In this document: positions 1-25,744 of the stretch, piece by piece
Layout of the letters: the number at the start of each line of letters is the position of its first letter
Position numbering within the stretch: position 1 is the first letter of the stretch
Notes under the pieces: generated by a model
What the model was told of the DNA's origin: nothing
The model's database searches: none
What the model saw: only the letters and a program-made list of their open reading frames with translations
Made by a program: the position numbers and the translations under genes
Origin: Nitrospirales bacterium
GTDB lineage: Bacteria; Nitrospirota; Nitrospiria; Nitrospirales; UBA8639
DNA length: 32,000 bases
Assembly (NCBI GenBank): GCA_965204475.1
Contig: OZ241988.1
Span: 123,545 to 155,544 of the forward strand
Direction: 5' to 3'

Positions 1-772
1 TCAACGCGCGGCCGTCCTTGTAACGGGCGTGCATGAGTGCCTGCATGAAATCGTCGGGACAGGCCCCGGAACGCCGGCGTTGCGCCATGATCCGGCTGAA
101 GAGGTCGGCCACTCTTCGCCGGGCCCGGTCGCGGCTTCGATGCGCCGTGGTCGGAAGTCTGGGGAGAAAAAATCCCAGGGTGTTGATGCCTTTTTGCAGA
201 TCGTGATACGCCTCGGCAAAACCCGCGTCTATCTGATCCCGGACTTCCTGTCCAATGAGGCAGCGGCTGGCGATCCTGACGGTGAGCTCGTTCATCGCGA
301 CCGGCAGATCGATTTCCCCGTCCTCGCCGAGGGCGTCGGCGAACCACCTCGTCTCCTCGAACATGATGCGGGCAAACCTGCTCATCGCGGCTTCGCGGAG
401 CGCCGGAAACAGAAACCCCAGTTGCTCGTCCATGAGCTCGGGAGAGGCGTCATAAGCCACGCCGCGTCCGAAGATGGGAACAGTGAACTGATAGACGGCT
501 TTGGCGTTCAACTGATCCTCGGGCGCTCTGAAGTAAAAGTCGTGGGCTTCGGGTCCGGTGAAGAGCACAAACTGGCGGGGACCGAGCCGGAACCGGAAGA
601 GTTCGCCCTGCTCGCTCCAGCCGCGGCTCAACATCGAGATCGGATCCTTTAAAAAATCCGGCAGATGACCGATCAGCGGCCACCCGCCCGCGAGTTCGGG
701 AACGGCTTTGGCCGGCGGCGGCGAGAGCTGCGCCGAATGCGGGAGTGCTTCACTGTGAGACCGATGTGTCAT
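1..772 (-). CDS. cyp51: Sterol 14-alpha-demethylase (CYP51-family cytochrome P450), N-terminal ~257 codons; the gene continues past the left edge
   Basis: Missing from the ORF track because it has no stop in the window. Hand translation from the ATG at 772 (minus strand) stays open to position 2: MTHRSHSEALPHSAQLSPPPAKAVPELAGGWPLIGHLPDFLKDPISMLSRGWSEQGELFRFRLGPRQFVLFTGPEAHDFYFRAPEDQLNAKAVYQFTVPIFGRGVAYDASPELMDEQ...GEDGEIDLPVAMNELTVRIASRCLIGQEVRDQIDAGFAEAYHDLQKG... It carries the CYP51 B-prime/BC-loop signature Y-x2-F-x2-P-x-F-G-x-G-V-x-Y-D and is collinear with my recollection of M. tuberculosis CYP51 (FMTPIFGEGVVFDASPE; GEIDLLDFF..CLIGKKFRDQLD). The ATG lies 8 nt downstream of the sterol reductase stop. 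Confidence 0.85.
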   Translation of the reverse strand, partial: MTHRSHSEALPHSAQLSPPPAKAVPELAGGWPLIGHLPDFLKDPISMLSRGWSEQGELFRFRLGPRQFVLFTGPEAHDFYFRAPEDQLNAKAVYQFTVPIFGRGVAYDASPELMDEQLGFLFPALREAAMSRFARIMFEETRWFADALGEDGEIDLPVAMNELTVRIASRCLIGQEVRDQIDAGFAEAYHDLQKGINTLGFFLPRLPTTAHRSRDRARRRVADLFSRIMAQRRRSGACPDDFMQALMHARYKDGRAL

Positions 773-780
773 CCCTGTCC

Positions 781-1881
781 TCAAAAGACGCACGGCAGCA
801 TCGAATAACGCACCCGTTGCGTGTAGCGTTCCCACAACTCGCCGTACTTGGCGCGGCAACGGTGTTCATCACGTCTCGAACGATGCCACAACAGACCGGC
901 CAGCCACGCGGGCAACAGGTAGGGCGCCCAGGATTCGAACCCGGTGGTCAGGGTGAACGCGAGGTAAACGCAGATCTCGCCGGTATAGTTGAGATGCCGT
1001 CCAATACCCCAGAATCCGGAGACCAGCAGACGCCCGTCCAGGGACCGGGCGGGTTGTCCCCAAATCACGGCGTGGGGGTCACGCTTGAAGCGGTGTTTTT
1101 GCTCGTTGGCGCCGCGGAAGATCCAGAAGCCGAGGGCGAACAACAGGACGAGCGCGGCGGCGGCGACGGGAGACAGCGCTTCCGGAGCGTGGACCAGCCA
1201 CCAGCCGGCGAGGCAATAGAAAAACGGCACCAGCACGTAGTCTCCCCAAATCAACATCCATCCGAAGCGCTCACTGACGATGTCCCAGGTGTGGGTCATT
1301 CCGTATTCGAACTGGAAGTAGTTGAGCACGTACAGGAAGGTGAAGATCTGATAGAGCGCCATGGCCAGGGTCAGACCACCGTAGGTTTCGTACTGCACGA
1401 CGGCAAACGATGCGTTGAACAGCGCCAGGGCGATGAGGGACGGGCGGTAGCTGAAAAGCTTCAAATCCACCCCGAGCCAGGTCGGATTGAGCTCCACACC
1501 AAAGAAGAAACCCCGCCACGGTCCCGGTGGCGCATCCCGGGGCCGGGCTCCCCGCCAATACAGCCAGCCGGAAAGAGCGAAGGCGAATCCGTTTGTCACC
1601 ACGAACAAAGCGGCAAAGTGGCTATGCAGCACTGAAAGAGAAAACCAGCCGGAGACTTGGGCGAGACAGGCCACGGTCACGGTAATCAGGAATAAGGCAA
1701 GGCCGTTGAGCGTGTAGGTGGTTGATTGTCCTTCGACCTCCGGTCCGGTCACCCGCCGTCCGGGCAGGAGCATCGAACCCAGGAACAACGCGCCGACAAA
1801 CCCCGACACCATGGCCGCCGCCTCGAGCAGGGCGCCGCCCGACAGCGCGGACGACAGGACGTGCGGCTCAGGTCCCGGCAT
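781..1881 (-). CDS. ERG4/ERG24-family sterol reductase; C-14 reductase is favoured by adjacency to cyp51, but C-7 or C-24(28) specificity cannot be excluded
   Basis: 366 aa, polytopic and hydrophobic. C-terminal family signatures are LLVSGFWGIGRHLNYTGE and HRSRRDEHRCRAKYG, the latter matching R-x2-R-D-x3-C-x2-K-Y-G. Its start overlaps the upstream Rieske gene stop by 14 nt. Confidence 0.85.
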   Translation of the reverse strand: MPGPEPHVLSSALSGGALLEAAAMVSGFVGALFLGSMLLPGRRVTGPEVEGQSTTYTLNGLALFLITVTVACLAQVSGWFSLSVLHSHFAALFVVTNGFAFALSGWLYWRGARPRDAPPGPWRGFFFGVELNPTWLGVDLKLFSYRPSLIALALFNASFAVVQYETYGGLTLAMALYQIFTFLYVLNYFQFEYGMTHTWDIVSERFGWMLIWGDYVLVPFFYCLAGWWLVHAPEALSPVAAAALVLLFALGFWIFRGANEQKHRFKRDPHAVIWGQPARSLDGRLLVSGFWGIGRHLNYTGEICVYLAFTLTTGFESWAPYLLPAWLAGLLWHRSRRDEHRCRAKYGELWERYTQRVRYSMLPCVF

Positions 1882-2995
1882 CGCCGTTCTCCGTCCCGCG
1901 CGCCATGTACTCCCGCCACTTGCGCACGGTCACGTTTTGAAAAGCCCGTACCGCCGGATTGTACTCGATGGGAGGGGCGTCCCAATGTTGCTCGTAACCC
2001 TGCTGCTCCGCTTCGACCGCAACGCCGTCCTGGGCGAGTAACGGGCCGATGAGTACACGGTTCGAGATCTTCAACACCGCGGTCATGGCGAAACGGGGAA
2101 TATGTACCGGCAGCAAGGGCACCTTCAGTGACTTGAAGTAGAACAGGAAGAACGCCCGGGTGGTGCGCTCATCGATCGGGAGGACGAAAAGCCAGTGCTT
2201 GATCGCGTCATCGGTGTTCGACCACTGGTAGGGGTATTGATAGCACAGATCCATATGAGTGGTGTTGAGCCGGTTGTGATCGACAAACAGTCCGGAGATG
2301 CGTCCGCGACCGACCTGCGTATCGTAGGCCACGTGCACGTTGTCCCCGACGGTCTCGCACCGGGTCAGGACGGCGCCTTCTTCGAAGGGACGGTATTGAC
2401 GATGCAGGTGGGCGTGGGTGAAGTCGCTCACGTTGTCGATCACCATCGAGTGGTGGGCCGCCCAGGTGAAGACCAGCGGCTCACAGGCCCACCGCTCAGG
2501 GCCCTCGAGTTCGGGGATGTCCGGGATCCGGCGCAGTTCCGCTCGCTCCGGGTCCCCGGGGAACAACCAGACCAGACCGTAACGGACCTTCACGGGATAG
2601 GTTCTGAGCGGGAGCTTCGGAAGACCCCGTCCGTGGCGGTCGTGGGGGATCGCGACACAGCGCCCGTCGCCGTCGTACTGCCAGCCATGGTAGGCGCACA
2701 CGAGCCGGCAGCCTTGCACCTCGCCCATGGAGAGTTTGAGCTGGCGGTGCGCGCAGCGATTCTCGATCGCGTGAAACGAGCCGTCTTTCCCCCGGAAGAG
2801 CGCAATGGAATGTTTCCAGAAAATGACCTCGACCACCGTCCCCGGTTTGACCCGGCGCACCTCTTCAACCGCGTACCAATAATCCGGGTCCATGCCCGCG
2901 GCGCGGGCTTGCTGGCGCAAGCTGCCGGCCTCATCGAAGCCGGGTGGCGCACCCGGCGCCGGAATCACACTGAGTTTCCGTTTGGAGTTATCCAT
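1868..2995 (-). CDS. Rieske [2Fe-2S] non-haem iron oxygenase; candidate SdmA-like sterol C-4 methyl oxidase
   Basis: 375 aa. Rieske motif CAHRQLKLSMGE...LVCAYHGWQYD (C-x-H ... C-x2-H). DNVSDFTHAHLH resembles the mononuclear Fe(II) site. An 8-nt overlap (ATGGATAA) links it to the upstream dehydrogenase gene. Confidence 0.8.
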   Translation of the reverse strand: MDNSKRKLSVIPAPGAPPGFDEAGSLRQQARAAGMDPDYWYAVEEVRRVKPGTVVEVIFWKHSIALFRGKDGSFHAIENRCAHRQLKLSMGEVQGCRLVCAYHGWQYDGDGRCVAIPHDRHGRGLPKLPLRTYPVKVRYGLVWLFPGDPERAELRRIPDIPELEGPERWACEPLVFTWAAHHSMVIDNVSDFTHAHLHRQYRPFEEGAVLTRCETVGDNVHVAYDTQVGRGRISGLFVDHNRLNTTHMDLCYQYPYQWSNTDDAIKHWLFVLPIDERTTRAFFLFYFKSLKVPLLPVHIPRFAMTAVLKISNRVLIGPLLAQDGVAVEAEQQGYEQHWDAPPIEYNPAVRAFQNVTVRKWREYMARGTENGDAGT

Positions 2996-4112
2996 AGGCC
3001 CGGCTCGGAGAGAAATTGTCCACGGGTGTCGCGGCGGTCACGCACGGACGTTTCGCGAGCGGATTCGTGATCGCGTTGCGGTGGTAGTGAAAGGCGTAGG
3101 CCTCATGAACCGCAGCGCGGATACTGGTCGGCTGATAGCCGAGATCCCGTCTCGCTTTACCGACGTCGGCGTGCAAGCGTTTGCGCAACAGGCGAATGGC
3201 GCCCGGGGTGAAACGCTGGGGGAAGCTCGGGTGAAACCGGCTCAGATAAAAGCTCGTCATTTCCGAAAAAGCGAGCATCATGTTGGCCGGAATACGCCGG
3301 CACGGTCGCGGAACACCCGAGACCTCCTCGAACAGGTCCAGAATCTCGGAAATGGTTTTGTACTCGCTGCTGAAGATGTACTTTTCGCCCGAGCGTCCCA
3401 GGCGCATGCACAACAGGTGCCCTTCGACAATATCCCGCGACGCGACGAACTCGAACCCGCCGTCAACGTAAGCATGGAGCTTGCGGTTGCTGTAGTCACA
3501 CAAAGCTCTTCCCAATCGCGAGGGGAAAAAATCGGCGGGCCCGACCACGGCGCAGCACGTTGCCACCACGACATCCTGTCCCTTCGCCGCGGCGCGCCAG
3601 CACTCATGCTCGACAAGCGACTTGCTGCGCTCGTAGGGCATCGTGCGCTCCATGGGATAGAATTGCATCGTCTCGTTGGCGGGCGCGGACGGATTATCCA
3701 AATCGTACCCGACCGCACTGAAAGAGCCCGTCACCACCACCCGGCCGGCCCCTACCTCCCGCGCCGCTTGCAGCACGTTGCGGGTGCCGAGAACGTTGCA
3801 GTCGAACACTTCTCGGCGATGCGCGCGATTGCCTTCGATGGTCGAGATCTTGGCCGCGACGTGGTAGACGCCCTGACAGCCCTCAAGCGCACGCCGGGTT
3901 GCATCCAAATCCCGGATATCACCAAACCGGCGTTCAACGTCAAGACCTTCCAGTCCTTCGTTGTTGTCCTCGTGTCTCAGCAACACCCGGACCCGGACGC
4001 CGTCGTCGAGCAGCCGGCGCACCAGATTGGCGCCCACGTGCCCGGCCGATCCGGTGACGAAAACGGGCGGCGTCGATGCCCCGGCGGGTGTGCTCGATCC
4101 TGAGGTCATCAT
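2988..4112 (-). CDS. NAD(P)-dependent 3-beta-hydroxysteroid dehydrogenase/epimerase-family protein; candidate SdmB-like
   Basis: 374 aa. Rossmann motif VFVTGSAGHVGANLVRRLL and catalytic Y-x3-K (PYERSKS). Its start codon directly abuts the SMT stop (TGAATG). Confidence 0.8.
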   Translation of the reverse strand: MMTSGSSTPAGASTPPVFVTGSAGHVGANLVRRLLDDGVRVRVLLRHEDNNEGLEGLDVERRFGDIRDLDATRRALEGCQGVYHVAAKISTIEGNRAHRREVFDCNVLGTRNVLQAAREVGAGRVVVTGSFSAVGYDLDNPSAPANETMQFYPMERTMPYERSKSLVEHECWRAAAKGQDVVVATCCAVVGPADFFPSRLGRALCDYSNRKLHAYVDGGFEFVASRDIVEGHLLCMRLGRSGEKYIFSSEYKTISEILDLFEEVSGVPRPCRRIPANMMLAFSEMTSFYLSRFHPSFPQRFTPGAIRLLRKRLHADVGKARRDLGYQPTSIRAAVHEAYAFHYHRNAITNPLAKRPCVTAATPVDNFSPSRAYG

Positions 4113-5144
4113 TCAGTCTCCCGAGCGCCGGGGTTTACGGGCCACGAAGAAATACATCGGCGTAAAGACACCGGACCTGCCGCCTTCGACCAGCGCGTCC
4201 GCCGCCGCATTCAACAGCGTGCTGACCGCGCGGGCGCCTTCCGGAACCAACCGCAATTTCTCCCCAACCTGTAACGTCAAATTGGTCAAGGCGCGGCCGA
4301 TAGGTGTCCGCGGAATGCTCGAAAGACTGAGATCGCGACCCTGTAAAGCCCGGTACCATGGCGTTTCCGGATCCGATTCGGGGGCGAGGTCACGCGCTTC
4401 CAGAAGCTCGAATCCGGCCCTGCGCAATGCGGTGCAAACCTCCGATGTGAGGGCGATATCCGGTAACGCGTCCCCCACCATGATATCGTTCTTGATCCGC
4501 TGGTGCTCGGCGTTTCCCGGATCGAAAGTCTCGGTGAGACACCATTCGTAGCCCGCGAAACAAGCCCCCGGACGCAGAACGCGGAGAATTTCCCGGAACG
4601 CCGCTGTTTTGTCCGGCGCGTGGGGCATGGACTCGATGGCGAAGGCTGCATCGTAGTGGTTGTCACCTTCAAGAATCTGCATGTAATCGCCGTGGATGAA
4701 GCGGCACAACGACTGGACATCCCGGGTGTGTACCTTCGCGCGTTCGATCTGGTAGGGGTTGTTGTTGATACCGACAAAGCCGGCCCCGGAATAGCGGGCC
4801 AGATTGCCCATCGGCCCTCCTACCCCGCACCCCACGTCGAGCACTTGCATCCCCGGCTTCAGGGACAGCCGATCGGCGAGAAAATGCTGGTGCCTGAGCA
4901 GGGACGCTTTGAAGCTCTCGCCTTGGCGTCGGGGTGCAAAGTGAAAGGACTGACCCCAGCCGAACTCGTAGAAATCGGTCACCAGGTCGTAGTAGTGATT
5001 GACCAGCGATTGATAACGCTCTTTCCTGCTCTCCAGGCCGGCGTCGTAAATCCCGGAGTATTGATCGACCACGGATTTCACTTCATCCGGGGCCAGATCC
5101 GCGAGGGAACGAGAGTTGGATCGTTTGGCGGGCGTACGGCTCAT
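4113..5144 (-). CDS. Sterol C-24 methyltransferase (ERG6/SMT family), paralog 1
   Basis: 343 aa. Sterol-MT region I is YYDLVTDFYEFGWGQSFHFAPR. SAM motif I is VLDVGCGVGGPMG. The C-terminus GVFTPMYFFVARKP is typical of the sterol-MT C-terminal domain. Confidence 0.9.
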   Translation of the reverse strand: MSRTPAKRSNSRSLADLAPDEVKSVVDQYSGIYDAGLESRKERYQSLVNHYYDLVTDFYEFGWGQSFHFAPRRQGESFKASLLRHQHFLADRLSLKPGMQVLDVGCGVGGPMGNLARYSGAGFVGINNNPYQIERAKVHTRDVQSLCRFIHGDYMQILEGDNHYDAAFAIESMPHAPDKTAAFREILRVLRPGACFAGYEWCLTETFDPGNAEHQRIKNDIMVGDALPDIALTSEVCTALRRAGFELLEARDLAPESDPETPWYRALQGRDLSLSSIPRTPIGRALTNLTLQVGEKLRLVPEGARAVSTLLNAAADALVEGGRSGVFTPMYFFVARKPRRSGD

Positions 5145-8111: not shown

Positions 8112-9140
8112 ATGACAGCCGGTCGAGACGAGCGCCTCCCCTCGCTTTCTCCCTTTCCGGAAGGCTGGTTCTTTGTCGCCGGCCGCAAGACGATCGAAAA
8201 GGCGAAGTTGGTCAAAAAAACCTGGATGGGCGAACAGATCGTTGTATGGTGCGACGAGGAAGGACGCATCTGTGTGGCCGAGGCGGTCTGTGCGCACATG
8301 GGTTCCGACCTGGGGCCGGAAGCCGGGGGCCGCGTGCGCAACGGCTGCCTCGTCTGCCCGTTCCACGGCTTCCAGTACGATGTCACCGGCCAATGCGTGG
8401 CCACGCCCTACGCGTCGGCGCCCAGGACCGCCAGGCTGAAGGTCTTCCACACGCGTGAAATCCTGGGTCTGGTTTTTGGCTGGTGGGGCATTGACGGACG
8501 GCCGCCGCAATGGGAGCTGCCGGAAGCGCCGCCGACCGGAGACGACTGGTGCGATTTGGATTTCTGGAGCGTCCGGGTCCCGGGGCATCCCCAGGAAACG
8601 ACCGAGAACTCCGTGGACCTGGGCCATCTGCGCTACGTGCACGGCTACAGCAGCGTGAACGCGATCGGTTCGGTGTCAATCGACGGCGCCTACCTCAAGA
8701 GTTGCTTCGACTTCAAGCGAACCCAGACCATCGCCGGGATCAAGGTCTTCGCGTATGATGTTTCCGCGGTCACCCACGTGTACGGGTTGGGCTATTCGTT
8801 CGTCGAGGTTCACGAGCGTGCGATCGACATGCAGACGCGTTTGTGGGTGCTGGCTACGCCCATCGACGGCAGACTCGTCGAACTGGTGCTGGTCAGCCAC
8901 GTGCGGCGAATCCTGAGACCGAAGCGGCCAATCGTGGGCATGCGCTTCCTGCCGTCACGCCTGCGCACCAGGCTCATGAACAAGATCATCATGGCGGCTC
9001 AAAAGCGGGATGTCATGCAGGACGTCGTGATCTGGGGCCGAAAACACTATCGGCCCCGCCCCATTTTATGTCGCTCGGACGGGGAGATTGGAACGTATCG
9101 GCGTTATTGCGAGCAATTCTATCCGGATCGTCCGGATTGA
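8112..9140 (+). CDS. Rieske [2Fe-2S] non-haem iron oxygenase, paralog 2 (Neverland/KshA-like architecture)
   Basis: 342 aa. Rieske motif CAHMGSDLG...LVCPFHGFQYD. Fe(II) motif ENSVDLGHLRYVH (D-x2-H-x4-H). Confidence 0.8.
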   Translation: MTAGRDERLPSLSPFPEGWFFVAGRKTIEKAKLVKKTWMGEQIVVWCDEEGRICVAEAVCAHMGSDLGPEAGGRVRNGCLVCPFHGFQYDVTGQCVATPYASAPRTARLKVFHTREILGLVFGWWGIDGRPPQWELPEAPPTGDDWCDLDFWSVRVPGHPQETTENSVDLGHLRYVHGYSSVNAIGSVSIDGAYLKSCFDFKRTQTIAGIKVFAYDVSAVTHVYGLGYSFVEVHERAIDMQTRLWVLATPIDGRLVELVLVSHVRRILRPKRPIVGMRFLPSRLRTRLMNKIIMAAQKRDVMQDVVIWGRKHYRPRPILCRSDGEIGTYRRYCEQFYPDRPD

Positions 9141-12662: not shown

Positions 12663-14897
12663 TTACCCCAAGGTGGCGAGGATGTTGTTGAACGTGGCGC
12701 TCGGGCGCATGGCCGTTGCGACCTTCGCCGGATCGGGGTGGTAATAGCCGCCGATGTCCATGGCCTTGCCTTTCACGGCCTTCAACTCGTCGAGGATTTT
12801 CTCGACGTTGGCCTCGAGCTCTTTTGCCACGGGCGCAAACTTTTCCCGTAACGTTGGATCGTCGGTTTGCGCGGCGAGTTCCTGTGCCCAATACAGGGCT
12901 TCGTACACGTGGGTGCCGATGTTGTCCAACTCGCCCAGCACCCGGCCGGGTGCCTTGCGGTTTTCCATGAGCTTGCCCGTGGCCCGGTCCAGGGTATTCG
13001 CAAGGACTTGCGCCTTCTTGTTGTTACGGGTCCGGCTGAGGTGAGCAAAGGATTCCGCCAAGGCGAGAAATTCACCGAGAGAATCCCATCGCAAATGCCC
13101 TTCTTTCACGAACTGCTGGACGTGTTTCGGGGCCGATCCGCCGGCGCCCGTTTCAAATAAGCCACCGCCGTTGATGAGTGGAACAATGGAGAGCATCTTG
13201 GCGCTGGTGCCCAGTTCCAGGATCGGAAACAGGTCGGTGAGATAATCCCGCAACACGTTGCCCGTCGCGGCAATGGTGCTTTGCCCGTCCTTGGCCCGTT
13301 TGAGAGAATGCTTCATGGCATCCACCGGGGCCATGATTTGGATGTCCAAGCCCGTCGTATTATGGTCTTTCAAATAGCGGTTCAGCTTTTCGATGAGCTG
13401 CGCGTCGTGTGATCGGTTCTTGTTCAACCAGAACACCACCGGCATTCCGGACGCCTTGGACCGATTCACGGCCAGCTTCACCCAGTCCTGAATCGGAATG
13501 TCCTTGACCGTACAGGCGCGGAAGATGTCGTCTTTTTCCACTGCCTGTTCGAGCAGGACGTTCCCGGCTCCATCCATCACGCGGATGGTTCCATTTCCGG
13601 GCGCCTCGAAGGTCTTGTCGTGCGATCCGTATTCTTCGGCTTTCTGGGCCATGAGACCCACGTTGGGCACGCTGCCCATGGTGGCCGGATTGAAGGCTCC
13701 ATTCTCACGGCAGAAGTCCGCCACGGCCTGATAAATCCCCGCGTAACTGCGGTCCGGGATCATGGCCTTCGTGTCGTATTCCTTACCGTCCGGTCCCCAC
13801 ATTTTCCCGCCGACGCGAAGCGCCGCGGCCATCGACGCATCGATGATGATGTCGCTCGGCACGTGCAGGTTGGTGATGCCCCGGTCCGAGTCCACCATCG
13901 CGAGGTCCGGGCCGTTTTGCATGGCCGCTTGCAGGTCGGCTTTGATTTCTTCCTGCTGCGCGGCGGGCAGGGAGCCGATTTTCGCATAGACGTCGCCCAA
14001 CCCGTTGTTGGGATTGACTCCGAGATCGGCAAAGACCTTTTCATGTTTCTTGAAGACGTCCTCAAAATAGACGGACACGCAATGGCCGAAAATAATGGGG
14101 TCCGAGACTTTCATCATGGTCGCCTTCATGTGCAGCGACAGGAGAATGCCGCTTTTCTTGGCCTCCTCAACCTGTTCCTTGAAGAATTGCCGTAATGCGC
14201 CGGCGCTCATTTTCGTGGCGTCCACCACGTCACCCTTGTCGAAGGTGACGCTGTCTTTCAATACGGTCGTGCCGCCGTCCGCGCCGACGAATTCGATGCG
14301 GCCCTTTCCCGCCGTTTGTTCGGTAATCGTCGTTGATTTTTCATTGGAAAAGAAGTCTCCACCCGACATGGACGCGACGTGCGTTTGTGAATCTTTGGCC
14401 CATGCCCCCATTTTGTGAGGATTCTTTTGGGCATATTGTTTCACGGAGGACGACGCCCGACGATCCGAATTGCCTTGTCGCAGCACCGGGTTTACCGCGC
14501 TGCCTTTCACCTTGTCGAACTTCGCCTTGATGGTCTTTTCTTCATCGGTCTTGGGGTCTTCGGGGTAATCGGGAATGGCGTACCCCTGGGATTGCAATTC
14601 GGCCACCGCGCCTTTGATTTGAGGAATCGATGCGCTAATATTCGGGAGTTTGATGACGTTGGCTTCCGGCGTTTCCACCATTTCGCCGAGGATGGCGAGA
14701 TCATCGGGTTGCCGTTGTTCCGGCTTCAAGCTGTCGGGAAATTGCGAGATAATTCGGCCGGCCAGCGAAATATCCTTCCTGCCGACGTTCACGCCTGCGG
14801 TATTGGCAAAGGCCTGGATAACCGGCAGAAACGAACCGCTCGCCAGTTCCGGAGCCTCGTCGACTTTTGTATAGATAATATCCGGTTCTGCTGACAT
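12663..14897 (-). CDS. icd: Monomeric NADP-dependent isocitrate dehydrogenase
   Basis: ~744 aa from the ATG at 14897. GGAGGAGG lies 5 nt upstream, whereas the ORF-track start at 14918 has no SD. The N-terminus, [24 protein letters not shown]...[14 protein letters not shown], matches the monomeric IDH family (Azotobacter type). Confidence 0.92.
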
Positions 14898-15018
14898 GTG
14901 TTCCTCCTCCATGTTCAAGGTTGTGAAAGATTAACAAATCAACCGGAATACGATTCCGGAGACCGAACAAAGAATTTTAGAGAGAACCGGCATTCGACGC
15001 AATCAACCGAAAGCCCCA

Positions 15019-16323
15019 GTGCCGACCCAACGAAAGGACCAGAGCCGCATGGGTCGGGTAGGCAAGCCGGACTTGCTCCTTCCGGCATTGAACGCCTTAT
15101 CGACGCTGGAATCGCACAATAGGTCGAACGTGAACCCTAACCGCGGTTTTGCGCTGGTGGCGGTTCTGTTGTTGATGGCCGTCGTGGGGATCGTCACGGC
15201 GACGGTTCTGCAGACGACCTCGACGGAAATCCAAATCAGTGCGAATCACAAGCAGGCGGTGCAGGATTTGTACGCCGCCGAGGCCGGCTTGGCGGAAGCC
15301 CGGTCGCGTTTACGGAAGACGACGGGAACCGACATCTATTTCATCGAGGACAGGGCGGTGTCGCCTGATCCGTTGTGGACTGCCTACATCGTGGAGTCTG
15401 CAGATTGGTTGCCGTCCGTTGACCCCGAGTATTCTCCGCATGCGACGAATCTGATTCCTCTTCCGGGTCATGCAGCCAATACGGTGGTGCAGCCCAACAG
15501 TTTGCAGACGGAACTGCCTTACTGGGTGAAGATCCGGCATAAAACCGAACAGGGCAACGTGGTCTACTTCGGATACCCCTCGTCGACGGACACCATTCCG
15601 GTCTCCTTCACGACAAATACACCCACACCGTGGTTGCCCATCGAGAAGATCATCGCCCATGGAGCCACTACCGGAGGGACCGTGGTTCTGGAGGAAGAAG
15701 TGGTGCATCCCCCGGGCCCGAACCAGCTCGGGGCGCTTCATGCGTTCGGAGACGTCAGCCTCGCGGGCTCGCCGGGCGAGATCGATGGCCAAGACTTTTG
15801 TGGTAGCGTCGGCAATCTGCCACCCGTCGTGTATGGAGGAACCTTCACGAGCAACCCGGCGATTCATTTCGACGGAACGCCTGCGAGTCCTCAGCACAGT
15901 GCCCACGTGCCCGATCCTGCCTCCGCGCTCGCCGCGCTGAAGACGGGCGCGATGGTGTTGAGTCACGATCAAATCAATCAGCATTTGGGAACCGCGCTGG
16001 TCCCCATGACGTTTTTTGCGGAAGGCGGATTGTTTGCCCAACCGCAGGGAATCCGTATCCGGCAAACCAGGGGATTCGGGGTTCTCTTAGTGGACGGGAA
16101 TGCCACTTTGGAAGGCGAGGTCCTCTGGAACGGCATGATCCTGGTGACCGGCACGTTGTTTCTCAACGGTCAGGGTAGTGAAATCGTGATTCGCGGAGGG
16201 GTCTGGGCGGGTGCGATCGACCATCAGGCGGGACCATTAAGGGTCTGGTACGACAGTTGCCTCCTGCGAGACGCGCTGCTGGCTGTCCCGACGCAGGTAA
16301 TCACGTGGAGGGAAATTTTTTAA
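15019..16323 (+). CDS. PilX-like (type IV pilus minor pilin/assembly, PilX_N-type) protein
   Basis: N-terminal hydrophobic helix RGFALVAVLLLMAVVGIVTATVLQTTSTEIQISANHKQ followed by AAEAGLAEARSRL. The C-terminal region is glycine-rich and beta-like (GFGVLLVDGNATLEGEVLWNGMILVTG). The start is uncertain; an in-frame GTG at 15130 is an alternative. Confidence 0.6.
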   Translation: MPTQRKDQSRMGRVGKPDLLLPALNALSTLESHNRSNVNPNRGFALVAVLLLMAVVGIVTATVLQTTSTEIQISANHKQAVQDLYAAEAGLAEARSRLRKTTGTDIYFIEDRAVSPDPLWTAYIVESADWLPSVDPEYSPHATNLIPLPGHAANTVVQPNSLQTELPYWVKIRHKTEQGNVVYFGYPSSTDTIPVSFTTNTPTPWLPIEKIIAHGATTGGTVVLEEEVVHPPGPNQLGALHAFGDVSLAGSPGEIDGQDFCGSVGNLPPVVYGGTFTSNPAIHFDGTPASPQHSAHVPDPASALAALKTGAMVLSHDQINQHLGTALVPMTFFAEGGLFAQPQGIRIRQTRGFGVLLVDGNATLEGEVLWNGMILVTGTLFLNGQGSEIVIRGGVWAGAIDHQAGPLRVWYDSCLLRDALLAVPTQVITWREIF

Positions 16324-16439
16324 CGATCCGTTTTCGGGAAAACTGCGAGGTCAGGCTTAGGAATGGGTCTTTCGTGACTCCCTGATATGGGCCTTTCGAT
16401 TGATTGCGGCGGGGAAACATTCTCTTTACAATCGCCGGT

Positions 16440-16468
16440 TTGACATCCTGATCTTCTCTTATTATTCA
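16440..16468 (+). promoter_or_regulatory. Candidate promoter of the aclBA/rTCA gene string
   Basis: Consensus TTGACA (16440-16445), 17-nt spacer, TATTCA (16463-16468). An AAGGG SD lies 7 nt before the aclB ATG. Confidence 0.4.
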
Positions 16469-16488
16469 GACTAACTAAGGGTTGCATT

Positions 16489-17685
16489 ATGGCAAAGGTA
16501 CTTGAAGGCCCGGGAATGGGCTTGTTGAAAAAGTGGGGTCTGCAAACCCCGAATTATGCCGTGGTCGGTTCTTCCGAAGAACTGGAACAGTTGGCGCAGG
16601 CCAATGATTGGTTGACCAAGAGTTCGTTGGTGGTCAAAGCCCATGAGGCGTTGGGCTCGCGCTTTAAACTCGGCCTCGTGAAGGTGGGCCTGGATCTCAA
16701 CGCGGCCAAGGCGGCCGCGAAAGAGATGCTCGGACGCACCGTCGGAACGTTGACCATACGGGAAGTGATCGTGTCCGAAGCGGTGGACCATAGCGAGGAA
16801 TACTACGTGGCCGTGAAATCGACCCGTGACGGCGCGGACGTAATGGTCGCCAATTGCGGCGGCGTTGAGGTGGAGTCCAATTGGGATCGCGTGCAACGCT
16901 GCTCCGTGGTCGTGGGCGATGCTCCCTCCGACGCGGCGCTGGAGGCCCTGGCCAAGGACGCCGGGTTCTCCGGTGAGTTGATCGGCAAAGTGGCCGACTT
17001 CGCCAGGAAGCTGTTCCTCTGCTTCGACAATGAAGACGCGCAATACCTGGAGATCAACCCCGTAGTCCGCAATGCCGCAGGTGAGTTGGTCGCGCTTGAT
17101 GCCGTGACCCTGTTGGACGGCGATGCCAAGTTCCGTCATCCGGATTGGACGTTCCCGTTTGCCGCGGAATTCGGTCGAGCCTATACCCAGAATGAGGAAG
17201 AGGTCATGGCCGTGGATTCGAAAGTGAAGGGCTCCGTGAAACTGATCGAAATTCCGGGGGGCGACACGGCGATGCTGCCGGCGGGCGGCGGGGCGAGTGT
17301 GTATTACTCGGATGCGGTCGTGGCCCGCGGCGGCAAGTTGGCCAATTATGCCGAATATTCCGGCGATCCTCCGGATTGGGCCGTCGAAGTCCTGACCGAT
17401 AAAGTCTGTTCTCTTCCCGGCATCAAGAACATCATCGTCGGCGGGGCCATCGCCAATTTCACCGACGTCAAGAAGACCTTCGGCGGTATCATCAATGCGT
17501 TTCGTAAAGCCAAGACGGAAGGGAAACTGGACGGCGTGAGAATCTGGGTGCGACGAGGCGGGCCCAACGAGAAACAGGGGCTGGCGGCTATGACGGCGTT
17601 GAAGGACGAAGGCTTTGAGATCGAAGTGTTTGATCGCCGGACCCCGTTGACGGACATCGTCGACATGGCTCTGTCCAAGAAATAG
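16489..17685 (+). CDS. aclB: ATP-citrate lyase beta subunit (ATP-grasp, SucC-like)
   Basis: 398 aa, the size I recall for Chlorobium-type AclB. It has an ATP-grasp N-terminus and sits directly upstream of aclA. Confidence 0.88.
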   Translation: MAKVLEGPGMGLLKKWGLQTPNYAVVGSSEELEQLAQANDWLTKSSLVVKAHEALGSRFKLGLVKVGLDLNAAKAAAKEMLGRTVGTLTIREVIVSEAVDHSEEYYVAVKSTRDGADVMVANCGGVEVESNWDRVQRCSVVVGDAPSDAALEALAKDAGFSGELIGKVADFARKLFLCFDNEDAQYLEINPVVRNAAGELVALDAVTLLDGDAKFRHPDWTFPFAAEFGRAYTQNEEEVMAVDSKVKGSVKLIEIPGGDTAMLPAGGGASVYYSDAVVARGGKLANYAEYSGDPPDWAVEVLTDKVCSLPGIKNIIVGGAIANFTDVKKTFGGIINAFRKAKTEGKLDGVRIWVRRGGPNEKQGLAAMTALKDEGFEIEVFDRRTPLTDIVDMALSKK

Positions 17686-17735
17686 CGGTCGTTGAAAGAG
17701 ATCTTTGCAAACATATTGAGACGTAGGAGAGTTCG

Positions 17736-19562
17736 ATGAGTATTCTGGCAACGAAAGAAACACATGTTGTGATCCAAGGCGGGGTGGCGGGCGTAAACGC
17801 GGCCCGGCGAATGGGTGAGTTCCGCCACATGATTCAGCAGCCCTTAAACGTTTCGGCGTTTGTGTATCCTCCGGATGCCGGGAAAACCAATGAAATCGTT
17901 TGCGGAAACCGGCTCCTCACGATTCCGGTGTACAAAACGGTTGCCGAGGCCACCGCGAATCATCCGGAAATCAATACCAGCCTGGTCTATGTCGGTGCGG
18001 ATCGTGCCTATGCCGGCACCAAGGAAGCCTTGGACAATTCCGGCATTCAAGTGGTGTCGATGATCACGGAAGGCTTGCCCGAGAAAGATTCCAAATTGCT
18101 CGGGGCGCATGCGCGGAAACTCGGGAAAGTGTTCAACGGGCCTTCATCCATCGGCGTCCTGTCGGCCGGAGAATGCCGGTTGGGTGTAATCGGCGGGGCG
18201 TTTGACAACCTGGTGGCCTGCAAGCTCTATCGTCCGGGGTCCTTCGGGGTGATCACGAAATCCGGCGGCCTGTCGAATGAAATCATCTGGATCTGCTCGC
18301 AATTCGCCGACGGCGTCACGACTGCCATCGGCATCGGCGGGGACGCCTATCCGGGAACGGATTACGTGACGTACCTCGAGATGTTCGAAAACGATCCGCA
18401 AACCAAGGCCGTCGTGATCGTCGGCGAGATGGGCGGTGATCTGGAGGAACGGGCCGCGGAATGGTACGGCGCGAAAAAACGCCGCGTGCGCCTCCTGGCC
18501 GTGGTGTCCGGTTTCTGCCAGGAGAGTTTGCCCAAGGGCATGAAATTCGGGCATGCCGGGGCCAAGGAGGGCCTCCAGGGTGAAGGGTCGGCCCGGGCGA
18601 AATCGGAAGCCTTGAAGAAGGCCGGGGCCCTCGTTCCCGATACTTTCGGCGCCTTGGGGCCGGCGATCAAGCAAACGTATGAAGAGCTGGTGAAGTCCGG
18701 TGAAGTCACGCCGATTCCCGAACTCACTGAAGCGGAGAAGCCCAAACTTCCCCGGACCGTGGAACAGGGCATGAAAGACGGGGATATCCTGGTTGCTCCC
18801 CTGATCAAGTCCACCATCAGCGATGACCGGGGCGACGAGCCATTGTACGAAGGGTATCCGGCGTCCGAACTCATCAACAAAGGCTATGACATTCCTCATA
18901 TCATCGGGCTCCTGTGGGACAAGCGGCTGGTCACCAAGCAGGAGGCCGAAATCATCAGGCGCATTATCATCCTGTCGGCCGATCACGGGCCCTGCGTCAG
19001 CGGAGCGTTGACCACCATTATCGGGGCCTGTGCCGGCATCGGGTTGTCACAAGCCGTAGCGGCCGGGTTGATCATGATCGGTCCGCGATTCGGCGGGGCC
19101 GTGACCGATGCGGGCCGGTATTTCAGCCATGCCATCGCCAACAACATGTCCGTGGACGAGTTTCTGTCCTACATGAAGAAAAACGTCGGACCGGTGCCGG
19201 GAATCGGGCATCGGGTGAAGAGCCTGCGGAATCCCGATAAGCGCGTGAAGGAATTGGTGGGGTACGTGAAGAGTCTGGACTTGGCCACGCCGCATTTGGA
19301 CTTTGCTCTCGAAGTCGAAAAGATCACGGCGGCGAAGAAAGACAACCTGATTTTGAACGTGGACGGAACCATGGCGGCCGTCCTCGTCGATCTCGGATTT
19401 CCGGTGGACAGCCTGAACGGGTTCTTCGTGCTGGCCAGGACCATCGGGCTGATCGGGCATTGGACCGATCAAAAACGTCAGGGCAGCCGGTTGATCCGGT
19501 TGTTCAACTATCTGGTGAACTACGCGGCCCCCGCGCGTCGGGAAGTGCCGCCACTCAAATAA
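17736..19562 (+). CDS. aclA: ATP-citrate lyase alpha subunit (CoA-ligase domain plus citrate-synthase-like lyase domain)
   Basis: 608 aa. TAGGAGAG SD. Phosphohistidine loop KFGHAGA. C-terminal citrate-synthase-like motifs LSADHGPCVSGA, GPRFGGA and PGIGHRVKS. Confidence 0.9.
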   Translation: MSILATKETHVVIQGGVAGVNAARRMGEFRHMIQQPLNVSAFVYPPDAGKTNEIVCGNRLLTIPVYKTVAEATANHPEINTSLVYVGADRAYAGTKEALDNSGIQVVSMITEGLPEKDSKLLGAHARKLGKVFNGPSSIGVLSAGECRLGVIGGAFDNLVACKLYRPGSFGVITKSGGLSNEIIWICSQFADGVTTAIGIGGDAYPGTDYVTYLEMFENDPQTKAVVIVGEMGGDLEERAAEWYGAKKRRVRLLAVVSGFCQESLPKGMKFGHAGAKEGLQGEGSARAKSEALKKAGALVPDTFGALGPAIKQTYEELVKSGEVTPIPELTEAEKPKLPRTVEQGMKDGDILVAPLIKSTISDDRGDEPLYEGYPASELINKGYDIPHIIGLLWDKRLVTKQEAEIIRRIIILSADHGPCVSGALTTIIGACAGIGLSQAVAAGLIMIGPRFGGAVTDAGRYFSHAIANNMSVDEFLSYMKKNVGPVPGIGHRVKSLRNPDKRVKELVGYVKSLDLATPHLDFALEVEKITAAKKDNLILNVDGTMAAVLVDLGFPVDSLNGFFVLARTIGLIGHWTDQKRQGSRLIRLFNYLVNYAAPARREVPPLK

Positions 19563-19633
19563 CAACATTGACGGTTTCCTTTGACCCGGTCCGCAAAAGG
19601 ATCGGGGCTCGGAAGCCATGCGGAGAACGTCCT

Positions 19634-21883: not shown

Positions 21884-21976
21884 ATGCGTTTCTTCCCTTC
21901 GCTCCGCTTCCTTCGGCTAGGCTCAGGACAGGCAGGGGAGGCAAAGGAGGGGAACAGAGGAGTACGGCAAACGAAT

Positions 21977-22696
21977 ATGACGGGTTCATTCGATACGGGC
22001 AAAGCGGTTAGCCGGGAAGACGCGCTCAAACCGCCCATGGTCACGGTGGAAATCGCGGGGAAATCCTTCCGGGTTCCGGCGGGCATTACCCTGATGAAGG
22101 CCCTCTGGTATACCGGCCACGAAGTCACGCGGGGGGCAGGGTGCCTGGGCGGGTTTTGCGGGGCTTGCGCGACCTATTATCGCACCAAGGACGACCCGAA
22201 AGTAAAAACCTGCCTGGGATGTTCGCACGCGGTGGAAGACGGCATGTCGTTTTCGTTTGCCCCGGCGTTTCCCGCGCGCAAGGCCACGTACGATTTGAAT
22301 CAGCTCGAAAACCCCAAGCAGGACCTGTTCAAGTTGTACCCGGAAGCGCCCCTGTGCAGGAACTGCAACGCGTGCACCGAAGCCTGCCCTCAACAGATCG
22401 ACGTGCGGGAAGGCGTGTGGAAAGCCGTGTTCGGGGACTTCAAAGCGGTGTCGGAAACGTTCATGGACTGCGTGATGTGCGGCCTGTGCGTGCCCGTGTG
22501 CATCGCCGATATCGCGCCGAACTTGGTGGGGGTCTATGCCAGTCGAGCCTACGGCGTACGCGAAATGGAAAAACCGTCCGGCCTCTTCGACCGGATTCAA
22601 GCCATTGCCGATGGACAGTACAACGACGACTGGGACCGCATCCTGAAGATGAGCGATGACGAATTACAACAGACCTCGGCCACGATCACGTCGTAG
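21977..22696 (+). CDS. Iron-sulfur subunit of a succinate dehydrogenase/fumarate reductase-like enzyme (2Fe-2S plus two Cys-cluster motifs)
   Basis: CLGGFCGACATYY...C (plant-ferredoxin-like), CRNCNACTEACP and CVMCGLCVPVC. The start is uncertain: 21884, 21977 and 22037 are all in frame. I chose 21977. Confidence 0.7.
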   Translation: MTGSFDTGKAVSREDALKPPMVTVEIAGKSFRVPAGITLMKALWYTGHEVTRGAGCLGGFCGACATYYRTKDDPKVKTCLGCSHAVEDGMSFSFAPAFPARKATYDLNQLENPKQDLFKLYPEAPLCRNCNACTEACPQQIDVREGVWKAVFGDFKAVSETFMDCVMCGLCVPVCIADIAPNLVGVYASRAYGVREMEKPSGLFDRIQAIADGQYNDDWDRILKMSDDELQQTSATITS

Positions 22697-22713
22697 GGGA
22701 GTGCGGCTGACAC

Positions 22714-24294: not shown

Positions 24295-24416
24295 CAGGAT
24301 GTTGAAAAAAGCCACCAGTTTTGTTCTCGCGTCGCCCTGAGGCTCGACGTACTTCATGTACGCCTCGCCTTCTCGCTTGCTGCGGCCGCGCTGGACGACT
24401 TTTTTTGAACATCCTG
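24295..24416. repeat. ~122-bp element bounded by 17/18-nt terminal inverted repeats (MITE/REP-like or a long stem-loop) between frdA-like and sucC
   Basis: The left arm is CAGGATGTTGAAAAAAG (24295-24311). The right arm is CTTTTTTTGAACATCCTG (24399-24416), whose reverse complement is CAGGATGTTCAAAAAAAG. Internal sub-hairpins: GAGGC...GCCTC and CGTAC-ttcat-GTACG. Confidence 0.5.
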
Positions 24417-24500
24417 CCTTCAAGCGGTTTTTGGGGAGTTTGGCCTGTTTCCTGGTGAGGAGTGGCCGCTTAGCGAGCTTTTTTCTTAAAGAGGAGAATC

Positions 24501-25688: not shown

Positions 25689-25744
25689 TCGCCCCGTCGT
25701 TCGGGTTTGGCCACGTTGGAACGCAGTGAGGAAAGGAATAGCGC

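What the first reader, a model, noticed from the sequence alone, without database searches (positions are those of the whole stretch)
1868..4112. Overlapping Rieske oxygenase and NAD(P)-dependent dehydrogenase: an SdmA/SdmB-like C-4 demethylation pair
In Methylococcus capsulatus, bacterial C-4 sterol demethylation uses a Rieske-type oxygenase (SdmA) plus an NAD(P)-dependent reductase/decarboxylase (SdmB) instead of the eukaryotic ERG25/26/27 enzymes. Here a Rieske oxygenase and a 3b-HSD-family enzyme overlap by 8 nt inside the sterol operon, which is the same two-component architecture.
Basis: partly seen in the sequence, partly recalled or inferred. Interest (0 to 1): 0.6.

Follow-up and report, generated by a model that had tools for sequence, protein, structure and literature searches.

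The report
Bacterial sterol C-4 demethylase gene pair
These two overlapping genes are clear relatives of SdmB and SdmA, the bacterial enzyme pair that removes methyl groups from carbon 4 of sterols; they sit in a complete sterol operon of a sponge/coral-associated Nitrospirales bacterium, and the same operon in a close relative was already published with these two genes labelled sdmA and sdmB, so the call is right but not new.

Summary
Two minus-strand genes, 2988-4112 (374 aa, extended SDR) and 1868-2995 (375 aa, Rieske oxygenase), overlap by the 8 nt ATGGATAA. They lie in the operon SMT, sdmB, sdmA, ERG24, CYP51, fused squalene epoxidase/oxidosqualene cyclase.

The Rieske protein matches NCBIfam's SdmA model over its full length (407 bits; the next family scores 39). 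The SDR matches SdmB (293 bits) better than HpnA (233), and a true HpnA lies elsewhere in the genome. Cofactor and catalytic motifs are invariant, dN/dS is 0.1-0.25, and the genome has no ERG25-type oxidase.

Differences from Methylococcus:
- Identity is only 41-50% (SdmA) and 38-43% (SdmB), below the equivalog cut-offs.
- Gene order is reversed (B then A).
- The pair sits in the non-methanotroph clade, whose tested members can remove both methyls.

Not new. Brown et al. 2023 (PMC10070321) list this operon, with sdmA and sdmB named, for a coral-reef Nitrospira MAG. Its 70,077-bp contig appears to be L010, which is colinear with the window at 90.5% nucleotide identity. This scan has also flagged the same pair many times on other DNA (47 notes, at least 39 genomes). 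Activity and the number of methyls removed remain untested.

The parts
2988..4112 (-). sdmB-like gene (374 aa): extended short-chain dehydrogenase, predicted sterol-4-carboxylate decarboxylating dehydrogenase / 3-ketosteroid reductase
   Evidence: NF052578 scores 292.9 bits against HpnA 233. Invariant T20-G21-x2-G24-x2-G27, S130 and Y160-x3-K164 across 34 homologues. AlphaFold pLDDT 85.6 with a Rossmann/extended-SDR fold; best PDB match 3wj7. dN/dS 0.10-0.24.
1868..2995 (-). sdmA-like gene (375 aa): Rieske [2Fe-2S] non-haem-iron monooxygenase, predicted sterol C-4 methyl oxidase
   Evidence: NF052579 scores 407.5 bits over its full length. Invariant C81-x-H83 and C100-x2-H103 (Rieske centre), and N188, D191, H194, H198 and D323 (candidate mononuclear-iron site) across 35 homologues. 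pLDDT 87.9; best folds are the alpha3-type Rieske monooxygenases GxtA/SxtT, DdmC and NdmA. dN/dS 0.11-0.25.
2988..2995 (-). 8-nt overlap ATGGATAA between the sdmB stop and the sdmA start (a junction of the translational-coupling type)
   Evidence: Read directly from the sequence. The same 8-nt junction occurs in 14 loci (the five examples printed are Nitrospirales); a 4-nt overlap occurs in 50 other loci.
781..1881 (-). Downstream operon gene: ERG4/ERG24-family sterol C-14 reductase; its start overlaps the sdmA stop by 14 nt
   Evidence: PF01222 scores 245 bits; junction.
4113..5144 (-). Upstream operon gene: sterol C-24 methyltransferase (SMT1); its stop abuts the sdmB start
   Evidence: Sterol_MT_C 81 bits plus methyltransferase domains; junction TGAATG.
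1..859 (-). 5' part of the CYP51-like P450 gene that follows ERG24. The rest of it, and the fused squalene epoxidase/oxidosqualene cyclase, lie just outside the window (L091:17363-18859 and L091:13977-17786).
   Evidence: P450 hits. SE + SQHop_cyclase domains in one ORF, TIGR03463 oxidosqualene cyclase 717 bits.

Best explanation
The two genes encode the bacterial-type sterol C-4 demethylase. SdmA is a Rieske/non-haem-iron monooxygenase that oxidises a C-4 methyl group stepwise towards the carboxylate, using O2 and electrons from a general ferredoxin/reductase. SdmB is an NAD(P)-dependent extended SDR that oxidises the 3-hydroxyl, which triggers decarboxylation, and then reduces the 3-ketone back. 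The genes are co-transcribed and probably translationally coupled within one operon: SMT, sdmB, sdmA, C-14 reductase, CYP51, squalene epoxidase/oxidosqualene cyclase. This operon gives a sponge/coral-associated Nitrospirales bacterium a de novo route to demethylated, side-chain-methylated sterols. Shown here: homology, intact cofactor and catalytic motifs, operon context, purifying selection, and absence of a eukaryote-type C-4 oxidase. Inferred: the chemistry, by analogy with characterised SdmAB. Also inferred, at about 55-60% likelihood, is that this single pair removes both C-4 methyls as in Calothrix, rather than one as in methanotrophs.
For: Family assignment:
- SdmA model 407.5 bits over its full length and SdmB model 292.9 bits are each the top NCBIfam hit.
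- Rieske, iron-site, TGxxGxxG, Ser and YxxxK residues are invariant across homologues that include eight methanotroph equivalogs scoring 677-715 bits.
- In the SdmB tree the window protein lies in a 97* clade that is sister to the methanotroph SdmB clade. Both lie inside a 98* clade that excludes the genome's own HpnA.
- That clade also holds a Nannocystaceae representative (P0010).
- It also holds SdmB domains fused to HMG-CoA reductase, squalene synthase, FPP synthase or a P450.

Context in this genome:
- The only other SdmB-like gene is a true HpnA (461 bits, over its cut-off) next to an FPP synthase, so there is no SdmC-type paralogue.
- The 99%-complete genome has no FA_hydroxylase (ERG25/ERG3) match.
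- The operon contains OSC, squalene epoxidase, CYP51, ERG24 and SMT.
- dN/dS is 0.10-0.25 for both genes.
- The B-then-A adjacency is conserved in 89 of 99 loci across at least 7 phyla.

Literature:
- SdmAB of M. capsulatus removes one methyl.
- Calothrix SdmAB removes both.
- SdmA homologues work in E. coli without a cognate reductase (all three: PMC10202945).
- Sandaracinus and Minicystis are reported to use SdmAB alone for full demethylation (PMC12004948).
- The 89%-identical SdmB orthologue of the published Nitrospira MAG is 52.9% identical to Calothrix SdmB against 43.8% to MCA1017.
- An SMT of that published operon accepted the 4-desmethyl sterol desmosterol in vitro (last two: PMC10070321, supplements).
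Against: - No enzyme of this sponge-symbiont clade has been assayed.
- Both proteins score below NCBIfam's 600-bit equivalog cut-offs and are only about 40-50% identical to the methanotroph enzymes.
- E. salina shows that an SdmA+SdmB pair from this wider clade can be insufficient on its own. Sequence identity to E. salina SdmB (51.3%) and SdmC (51.4%) is about the same as to Calothrix SdmB, so phylogeny cannot tell how many methyls are removed.
- No reductase or ferredoxin partner is encoded in the cluster, and only one FNR-type ORF was found in the genome, far away.
- No sterols have been measured in any Nitrospirales.
Confidence: 0.85

Rival explanations
1. The pair is a genuine SdmAB demethylase but, like the methanotroph system, removes only one C-4 methyl. 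The end products would then be 4-methyl sterols.
For: Only one SdmA and one SdmB-clade gene are in the genome. The founding SdmAB system removes a single methyl (PMC10202945).
Against: The pair lies outside the methanotroph clade. It is closer to Calothrix SdmB, a pair that removes both methyls (PMC10070321 supplement; PMC10202945). An SMT of the orthologous published operon used a 4-desmethyl substrate in vitro. None of this is decisive.
Confidence: 0.22
2. The pair alone is insufficient, as in Enhygromyxa salina. SdmA would make the oxidised intermediate, and a third, unrecognised dehydrogenase or decarboxylase would be needed to complete demethylation.
For: E. salina SdmAB only accumulates the 4-methylaldehyde and needs SdmC (PMC10202945). 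The window SdmB orthologue is equally similar to E. salina SdmB and SdmC.
Against: No second SdmB-clade paralogue exists in this 99%-complete genome. SdmC is reported as restricted to Nannocystaceae (PMC10202945). Both genes are under purifying selection and are kept adjacent across phyla.
Confidence: 0.1
3. The pair does not serve de novo synthesis. It would modify or degrade host (sponge or coral) sterols, or another triterpenoid, as a KshA-like hydroxylase plus a 3beta-HSD would.
For: A distant Pfam 3Beta_HSD hit. The second Rieske gene of the window is KshA_C-like. The symbiont lives among host sterols.
Against: The SdmA model is the top hit by a wide margin and there is no KshA_C domain. 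KshA structures match far more weakly than SxtT/DdmC-type ones. The genes are inside an operon with OSC, squalene epoxidase, CYP51 and ERG24.
Confidence: 0.04
4. The SDR is an HpnA-type hopanoid-associated enzyme that only happens to lie next to a Rieske gene.
For: TIGR03466 HpnA gives 233 bits. The best solved relative is the uncharacterised 3wj7.
Against: The HpnA score is under its 367.65-bit cut-off and below the SdmB score. A true HpnA (461 bits) is encoded elsewhere and is only 33% identical. The tree separates the two.
Confidence: 0.02

Closest known systems
sdmA/sdmB of the coral-reef 'Nitrospira sp.' MAG sterol cluster in Brown et al. 2023 (Nat Commun 14:1859, PMC10070321; Fig. 3 and Supplementary Data 1, IMG genes 2682229276 and 2682229275). 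L010 (JAAXIB010000027.1) has the same 70,077-bp contig length, so I take it to be this contig.
   Same: The gene order is the same: SMT, sdmB, sdmA, ERG24, CYP51, one gene hitting both ERG1 and ERG7. The same 8-nt junction is present. The locus is colinear with the window at 90.5% nucleotide identity over 6.9 kb. SdmA is 94% and SdmB 89% identical.
   Different: It is a different species-level genome. In both, the sdmAB genes were annotated only by BLAST and never assayed.
SdmA/SdmB of Methylococcus capsulatus Bath (MCA1016/MCA1017; Lee et al. 2018 PNAS 115:5884, cited via PMC10202945; NCBIfam NF052579 and NF052578)
   Same: A Rieske oxygenase plus an extended-SDR partner, adjacent and overlapping, with all cofactor and catalytic motifs shared.
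   Different: Identity to methanotroph-type proteins is 41-50% (SdmA) and 38-43% (SdmB), and scores are below the equivalog cut-offs. The gene order is reversed: A then B in all 8 methanotroph-type loci, B then A here. The methanotroph pair removes only one methyl and its operon lacks an SMT.
SdmAB of Calothrix sp. NIES-4105 (Lee et al. 2023, PMC10202945)
   Same: A two-protein system inside a single sterol gene cluster. By the published BLAST table it is the closest characterised SdmB to the Nitrospira orthologue (52.9%).
   Different: It is cyanobacterial. I could not obtain its sequence, so its position in my trees was not tested. Removal of both methyls is shown for Calothrix only.
Sponge-symbiont 'clusters of steroid genes' (Kelly et al. 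2022, Microbiome 10:164, PMC9531527)
   Same: The same ERG24-CYP51-LSS core, spread across many symbiont phyla, with HGT proposed.
   Different: That study's pipeline did not annotate SdmA/SdmB and suggested they might be among the hypothetical proteins.
Eukaryotic C-4 demethylation complex ERG25/ERG26/ERG27 (SMO, NSDHL, HSD17B7)
   Same: The same overall chemistry: methyl oxidation, 3-dehydrogenation with decarboxylation, then 3-keto reduction. SdmB and human NSDHL are both extended SDRs and are detectably related (6jkg, E 2.8e-20).
   Different: The oxidase is a Rieske enzyme and not a membrane di-iron FA_hydroxylase, and none of the latter is in the genome. One SDR is proposed to do both the decarboxylation and the reduction.

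Membership tests
SdmA (bacterial sterol C-4 methyl oxidase; NCBIfam NF052579) | Full-length best match to the SdmA profile, far above other Rieske families | tested here: met
   407.5 bits, model positions 4-344 of 351; the next family scores 38.8 bits.
SdmA (bacterial sterol C-4 methyl oxidase; NCBIfam NF052579) | Score over the curated equivalog cut-off (600 bits), meaning the methanotroph 4beta-methylsterol monooxygenase proper | tested here: not met
   407.5 bits is under 600. Methanotroph-type proteins score 677-715. It is a member of the wider SdmA family, not of the equivalog group.
SdmA (bacterial sterol C-4 methyl oxidase; NCBIfam NF052579) | Rieske CxH...CxxH cluster ligands and mononuclear-iron His/His/carboxylate site | tested here: met
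   C81, H83, C100, H103, D191, H194, H198 and D323 are invariant in 35 sequences including methanotroph types. Which carboxylate binds the iron is inferred.
SdmA (bacterial sterol C-4 methyl oxidase; NCBIfam NF052579) | Encoded next to an sdmB partner within a sterol (OSC/CYP51) gene context | tested here: met
   8-nt overlap with sdmB. The operon contains ERG24, CYP51 and SE-OSC. The gene order is the reverse of the methanotroph one.
SdmA (bacterial sterol C-4 methyl oxidase; NCBIfam NF052579) | Oxidises the C-4 methyl of 4,4-dimethyl sterols | not testable with these tools
   Needs heterologous expression and GC-MS.
SdmB (bacterial sterol C-4 decarboxylase/3-ketoreductase; NCBIfam NF052578) | Extended-SDR fold with TGxxGxxG and the Ser/Tyr/Lys catalytic residues | tested here: met
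   T20, G21, G24, G27, S130, Y160 and K164 are invariant. Model pLDDT is 85.6, and the top folds are extended SDRs.
SdmB (bacterial sterol C-4 decarboxylase/3-ketoreductase; NCBIfam NF052578) | Closer to SdmB than to the sister family HpnA | tested here: met
   292.9 bits against 233 bits. The own-genome HpnA scores 461 on HpnA and is 33% identical. The tree has a 98* clade holding this protein and methanotroph SdmB, with HpnA outside.
SdmB (bacterial sterol C-4 decarboxylase/3-ketoreductase; NCBIfam NF052578) | Score over the curated equivalog cut-off (600 bits) | tested here: not met
   292.9 bits. It belongs to the non-methanotroph clade.
SdmB (bacterial sterol C-4 decarboxylase/3-ketoreductase; NCBIfam NF052578) | Decarboxylates the 4-carboxy sterol and reduces the 3-ketone; number of methyls removed | not testable with these tools
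   Characterised homologues differ on this (PMC10202945).
   The C-terminal domain is VanA_C, not KshA_C. Aromatic dioxygenase models score 39 bits or less. KshA chains give E 1e-13 to 1e-16, against 1e-27 to 1e-28 for SxtT/GxtA/DdmC.
Eukaryotic ERG25-type C-4 methyl oxidase system | FA_hydroxylase (PF04116) di-iron membrane oxidase present | tested here: not met
   No match in the 99%-complete genome.

The most novel reading that the evidence does not exclude
The sdmB-sdmA module of sponge symbionts may be a recently and repeatedly exchanged cassette. It is 86% nucleotide-identical between this Nitrospirales genome and Binatia or Gammaproteobacteria MAGs (dS 0.34-0.44), and the operon is a GC outlier in its host genome. 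With a single SDR it might remove both C-4 methyls. An autotrophic nitrite-oxidiser lineage could then make fully demethylated 24-alkyl sterols de novo and contribute to 'sponge' sterol biomarkers.
Probability: 0.4. Interest if true: 0.4.

Novelty: already known. Interest (0 to 1): 0.2.

Why it matters
Bacterial C-4 demethylation decides whether a bacterium can make 'eukaryote-like' 4-desmethyl sterols. Together with the cluster's sterol methyltransferases, it therefore bears on whether bacterial symbionts contribute to the 24-alkyl sterane biomarkers that are read as early animal fossils. This locus adds one more complete, single-contig genome copy of an operon that is already in the literature. 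It does not open a new question. The one open point is biochemical: does this clade's two-protein system remove one methyl or both?

Tried and rejected
- KshA-type or aromatic-ring oxygenase reading for the Rieske protein: rejected.
- HpnA reading for the SDR: rejected, because a separate true HpnA exists and the tree separates the two.
- A second SdmB/SdmC-type paralogue that would suggest an E. salina-like three-protein system: looked for and not found.
- A eukaryote-type ERG25 oxidase: looked for and not found.
- A dedicated Rieske reductase: only one distant FNR-type ORF found.
- Placing Calothrix and E. salina sequences in my own trees failed:
  - the Atlas search gave only generic epimerase clusters.
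  I therefore rely on the published BLAST table and on one named Nannocystaceae representative.
- The Lee et al. 2018 PNAS paper is not held, so it is cited through PMC10202945.
- The root of the SdmA tree is unreliable because the outgroup branch is very long, so I draw no direction of transfer from it.
Full report
OBSERVATION. The window holds two minus-strand ORFs, 1868-2995 (375 aa) and 2988-4112 (374 aa). On the minus strand the junction reads GCCTATGGATAACTCC. The ATG of the downstream gene therefore lies 8 nt before the end of the upstream gene, whose stop is TAA. The downstream end of the Rieske gene overlaps the start of an ERG4/ERG24 reductase gene by 14 nt. The stop of a sterol methyltransferase gene directly abuts the start of the SDR gene, as TGAATG.

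WHAT THE PROTEINS ARE. Pfam finds Rieske + VanA_C in the first protein. In the second it finds Epimerase (114.7 bits) with a weaker 3Beta_HSD hit (65.9 bits). NCBIfam is more specific:
- The Rieske protein matches the SdmA model NF052579 at 407.5 bits (E 4e-122) over positions 4-344 of 351. The next family reaches only 38.8 bits.
- The SDR matches the SdmB model NF052578 at 292.9 bits, ahead of HpnA at 233 bits, which is under HpnA's own cut-off.
- Both scores are below the 600-bit equivalog cut-offs, which are tuned to methanotrophs.

The genome has one other SdmB-like gene. It is a true HpnA (461 bits) next to an FPP synthase and is only 33% identical to the cluster SDR. There is therefore one SdmA and one SdmB-clade gene, and no SdmC-like paralogue.

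RESIDUES AND FOLD. I aligned the window proteins with homologues from many phyla and with methanotroph-type proteins. The alignments hold 35 sequences for SdmA and 34 for SdmB.
- In SdmA the Rieske ligands C81/H83/C100/H103 are invariant, as are N188, D191, H194, H198 and D323, a candidate mononuclear-iron site.
- In SdmB the TGxxGxxG motif (T20-G27), S130 and Y160-x3-K164 are invariant.
- AlphaFold models are confident (pLDDT 87.9 and 85.6).
- The SdmA model resembles alpha3-type Rieske monooxygenases (GxtA/SxtT, dicamba monooxygenase, NdmA, guaiacol O-demethylase). KshA ranks much lower.
- The SdmB model resembles extended SDRs, best the uncharacterised Gox2253 (3wj7). Human NSDHL, the eukaryotic C-4 decarboxylase, is a detectable but distant relative (E 2.8e-20).

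CONTEXT. The window is C1:123545-155544 of a single-contig 2.26-Mb genome that is 99% complete. Immediately upstream of the window lie two more genes:
- the rest of a CYP51-like P450;
- one long ORF combining squalene epoxidase and oxidosqualene cyclase (TIGR03463, 717 bits).

The operon therefore reads SMT, sdmB, sdmA, ERG24, CYP51, SE-OSC. No FA_hydroxylase (ERG25/ERG3 type) gene is present in the genome, so SdmA is the only candidate C-4 methyl oxidase. No Rieske reductase is encoded nearby, and only one FNR-type ORF was found, far away. This is not a strong objection, because SdmA homologues were active in E. coli without a cognate partner (PMC10202945).

RELATIVES.
- A scan of one genome per species found 346 related stretches. 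The best 80 are almost all MAGs, many with sponge-related names (Porisulfidus, Poriferihabitaceae).
- Seventeen are Nitrospirales/Nitrospira at 88-97% SdmA identity.
- The rest are at 74-84% identity. They are Binatia, Gamma- and Alphaproteobacteria, Opitutales, Rhodothermales, Acidobacteria and Thermodesulfobacteriota.
- In 89 of 99 loci examined the order is sdmB then sdmA. The overlap is 4 nt in 50 loci and 8 nt in 14 loci, the latter group being Nitrospirales in the examples printed.
- Sampling the gammaproteobacterial class, and then the order of the first methanotroph-type hit, gave eight genomes with SdmA over the equivalog cut-off (677-715 bits). All eight have the order sdmA then sdmB.
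- The window proteins are 41-50% (SdmA) and 38-43% (SdmB) identical to these.

TREES. In the SdmA tree the Nitrospirales sequences form a 99* clade inside the short-branched sponge-symbiont radiation. The methanotroph equivalogs form a separate long-branched clade. The root is unreliable there. In the SdmB tree, rooted on the genome's own HpnA:
- a 98* clade holds both the methanotroph SdmB group and a 97* group containing the window protein;
- that 97* group also contains a Nannocystaceae representative (P0010);
- it also contains SdmB domains fused to HMG-CoA reductase, squalene synthase, FPP synthase or a P450.

These fusions independently tie the clade to the isoprenoid/sterol pathway.

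SELECTION AND TRANSFER. Pairwise dN/dS against ten orthologues is 0.10-0.25 for both genes. The sdmBA region is about 86% nucleotide-identical to the Binatia and Gammaproteobacteria loci, with dS only 0.34-0.44. The operon has 62.3% GC against 57.1% for the genome, which is the 97.8th percentile of 5-kb windows. This fits horizontal spread of the cluster among sponge symbionts, as Kelly et al. 2022 proposed for the ERG24-CYP51-LSS core (PMC9531527).

PRIOR ART. Brown et al. [quoted passage not shown] Their Supplementary Data 1 has a sheet 'Nitrospira MAG' that lists consecutive genes as follows:
- ...79: ERG1 + ERG7
- ...78: ERG11
- ...77: ERG24
- ...76: sdmA, 46.55% to MCA1016
- ...75: sdmB, 43.8% to MCA1017, 52.9% to Calothrix SdmB, 51.3% to E. 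salina SdmB and 51.4% to SdmC
- ...74: SMT

The supplement gives that contig's length as 70,077 bp. This equals the length of JAAXIB010000027.1, my locus L010, so I take them to be the same contig. L010 is colinear with the window at 90.5% nucleotide identity over 6.9 kb. It carries the same 8-nt junction. This scan has also flagged the same pair repeatedly on other DNA: 47 notes in at least 39 genomes, and the follow-ups shown reached the same verdict. I reached mine independently and then found agreement.

HOW IT MOST LIKELY WORKS. By analogy with the characterised systems (PMC10202945):
1. SdmA uses O2 and two-electron donations from a general ferredoxin/reductase to oxidise a C-4 methyl via alcohol and aldehyde to the acid.
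2. SdmB oxidises the 3-hydroxyl, which makes the beta-keto acid lose CO2.
3. SdmB then reduces the 3-ketone.

This chemistry is inferred; it is not shown here.

How many methyls are removed is open. Methanotroph SdmAB removes one, Calothrix SdmAB removes both, and E. salina needs SdmC as well (PMC10202945). Sandaracinus and Minicystis are reported to manage with SdmAB alone (PMC12004948). I lean towards removal of both (about 55-60%) for three reasons:
- there is a single SdmB-clade gene;
- the pair lies in the non-methanotroph clade;
- the operon has SMTs, one of which in the published orthologue accepted desmosterol.

VERDICT. The finding is ordinary and already published for a near-identical locus.

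CAVEATS.
- L096 comes from G044, which is flagged unpublished. It was only one row in the tree and one locus in the count.

Noticed in passing
L091:13977-17786 (-), i.e. G000:C1:119521-123330, just upstream of the window: One ORF combines a squalene epoxidase (residues ~149-511) and an oxidosqualene cyclase (residues ~618-1249). Its true start is probably right after the CYP51 stop near L091:17360. The published Nitrospira MAG table also assigns ERG1 and ERG7 to one gene.
   Followed up: partly
L091:9982-12276 (+) and L091:12374-13114 (+): An MMPL/RND transporter with a sterol-sensing-domain hit, followed by a TPR protein, lies just beyond the sterol operon. They may be counterparts of the methanotroph sterol transport proteins BstA/BstC (PMC10942540). 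This was not tested.
   Followed up: no
Proteins P0003, P0004, P0006, P0007, P0008, P0024 (metagenome representatives): SdmB-clade domains (43-57% identical to the window SdmB) occur fused to HMG-CoA reductase, squalene synthase, FPP synthase or a P450. The HMGR-SQS-SdmB form (1253 aa) is seen on more than 25 contigs of up to 43 kb.
   Followed up: partly
window 1868-4112 versus L024 (Binatia) and L025 (Gammaproteobacteria): About 86% nucleotide identity and dS 0.34-0.44 across phyla. The operon's GC is 62.3% against 57.1% for the genome (97.8th percentile). This suggests recent horizontal spread of the cassette among sponge symbionts.
   Followed up: partly
L105-L110 (genomes in the same GTDB order as the methanotroph-type SdmA genomes): A second SdmBA type is present there. 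It has B-then-A order and scores ~383-400 bits on the SdmA model. SdmA is 54-59% identical to the window protein. It is distinct from the A-then-B equivalog type in the same order.
   Followed up: no
SdmA and SdmB trees: Nitrospirales SdmA sequences are monophyletic (99*). Their SdmB sequences split into two groups (L010+L017 versus window+L007+L022) among other phyla. This is a weak hint of recombination inside the operon.
   Followed up: no
window 8112-9140 (+): A second Rieske oxygenase with a KshA_C domain scores only 33 bits on the SdmA model. It is not an SdmA paralogue and probably does a different sterol oxidation.
   Followed up: partly
window 12663-26617: The sterol cluster abuts a block of TCA-type genes, probably a reductive TCA set. 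It comprises monomeric isocitrate dehydrogenase, two ATP-citrate-lyase subunits, aconitase, a fumarate-reductase-like flavoprotein with an Fe-S subunit, and succinyl-CoA synthetase. This fits an autotrophic Nitrospirales host.
   Followed up: no
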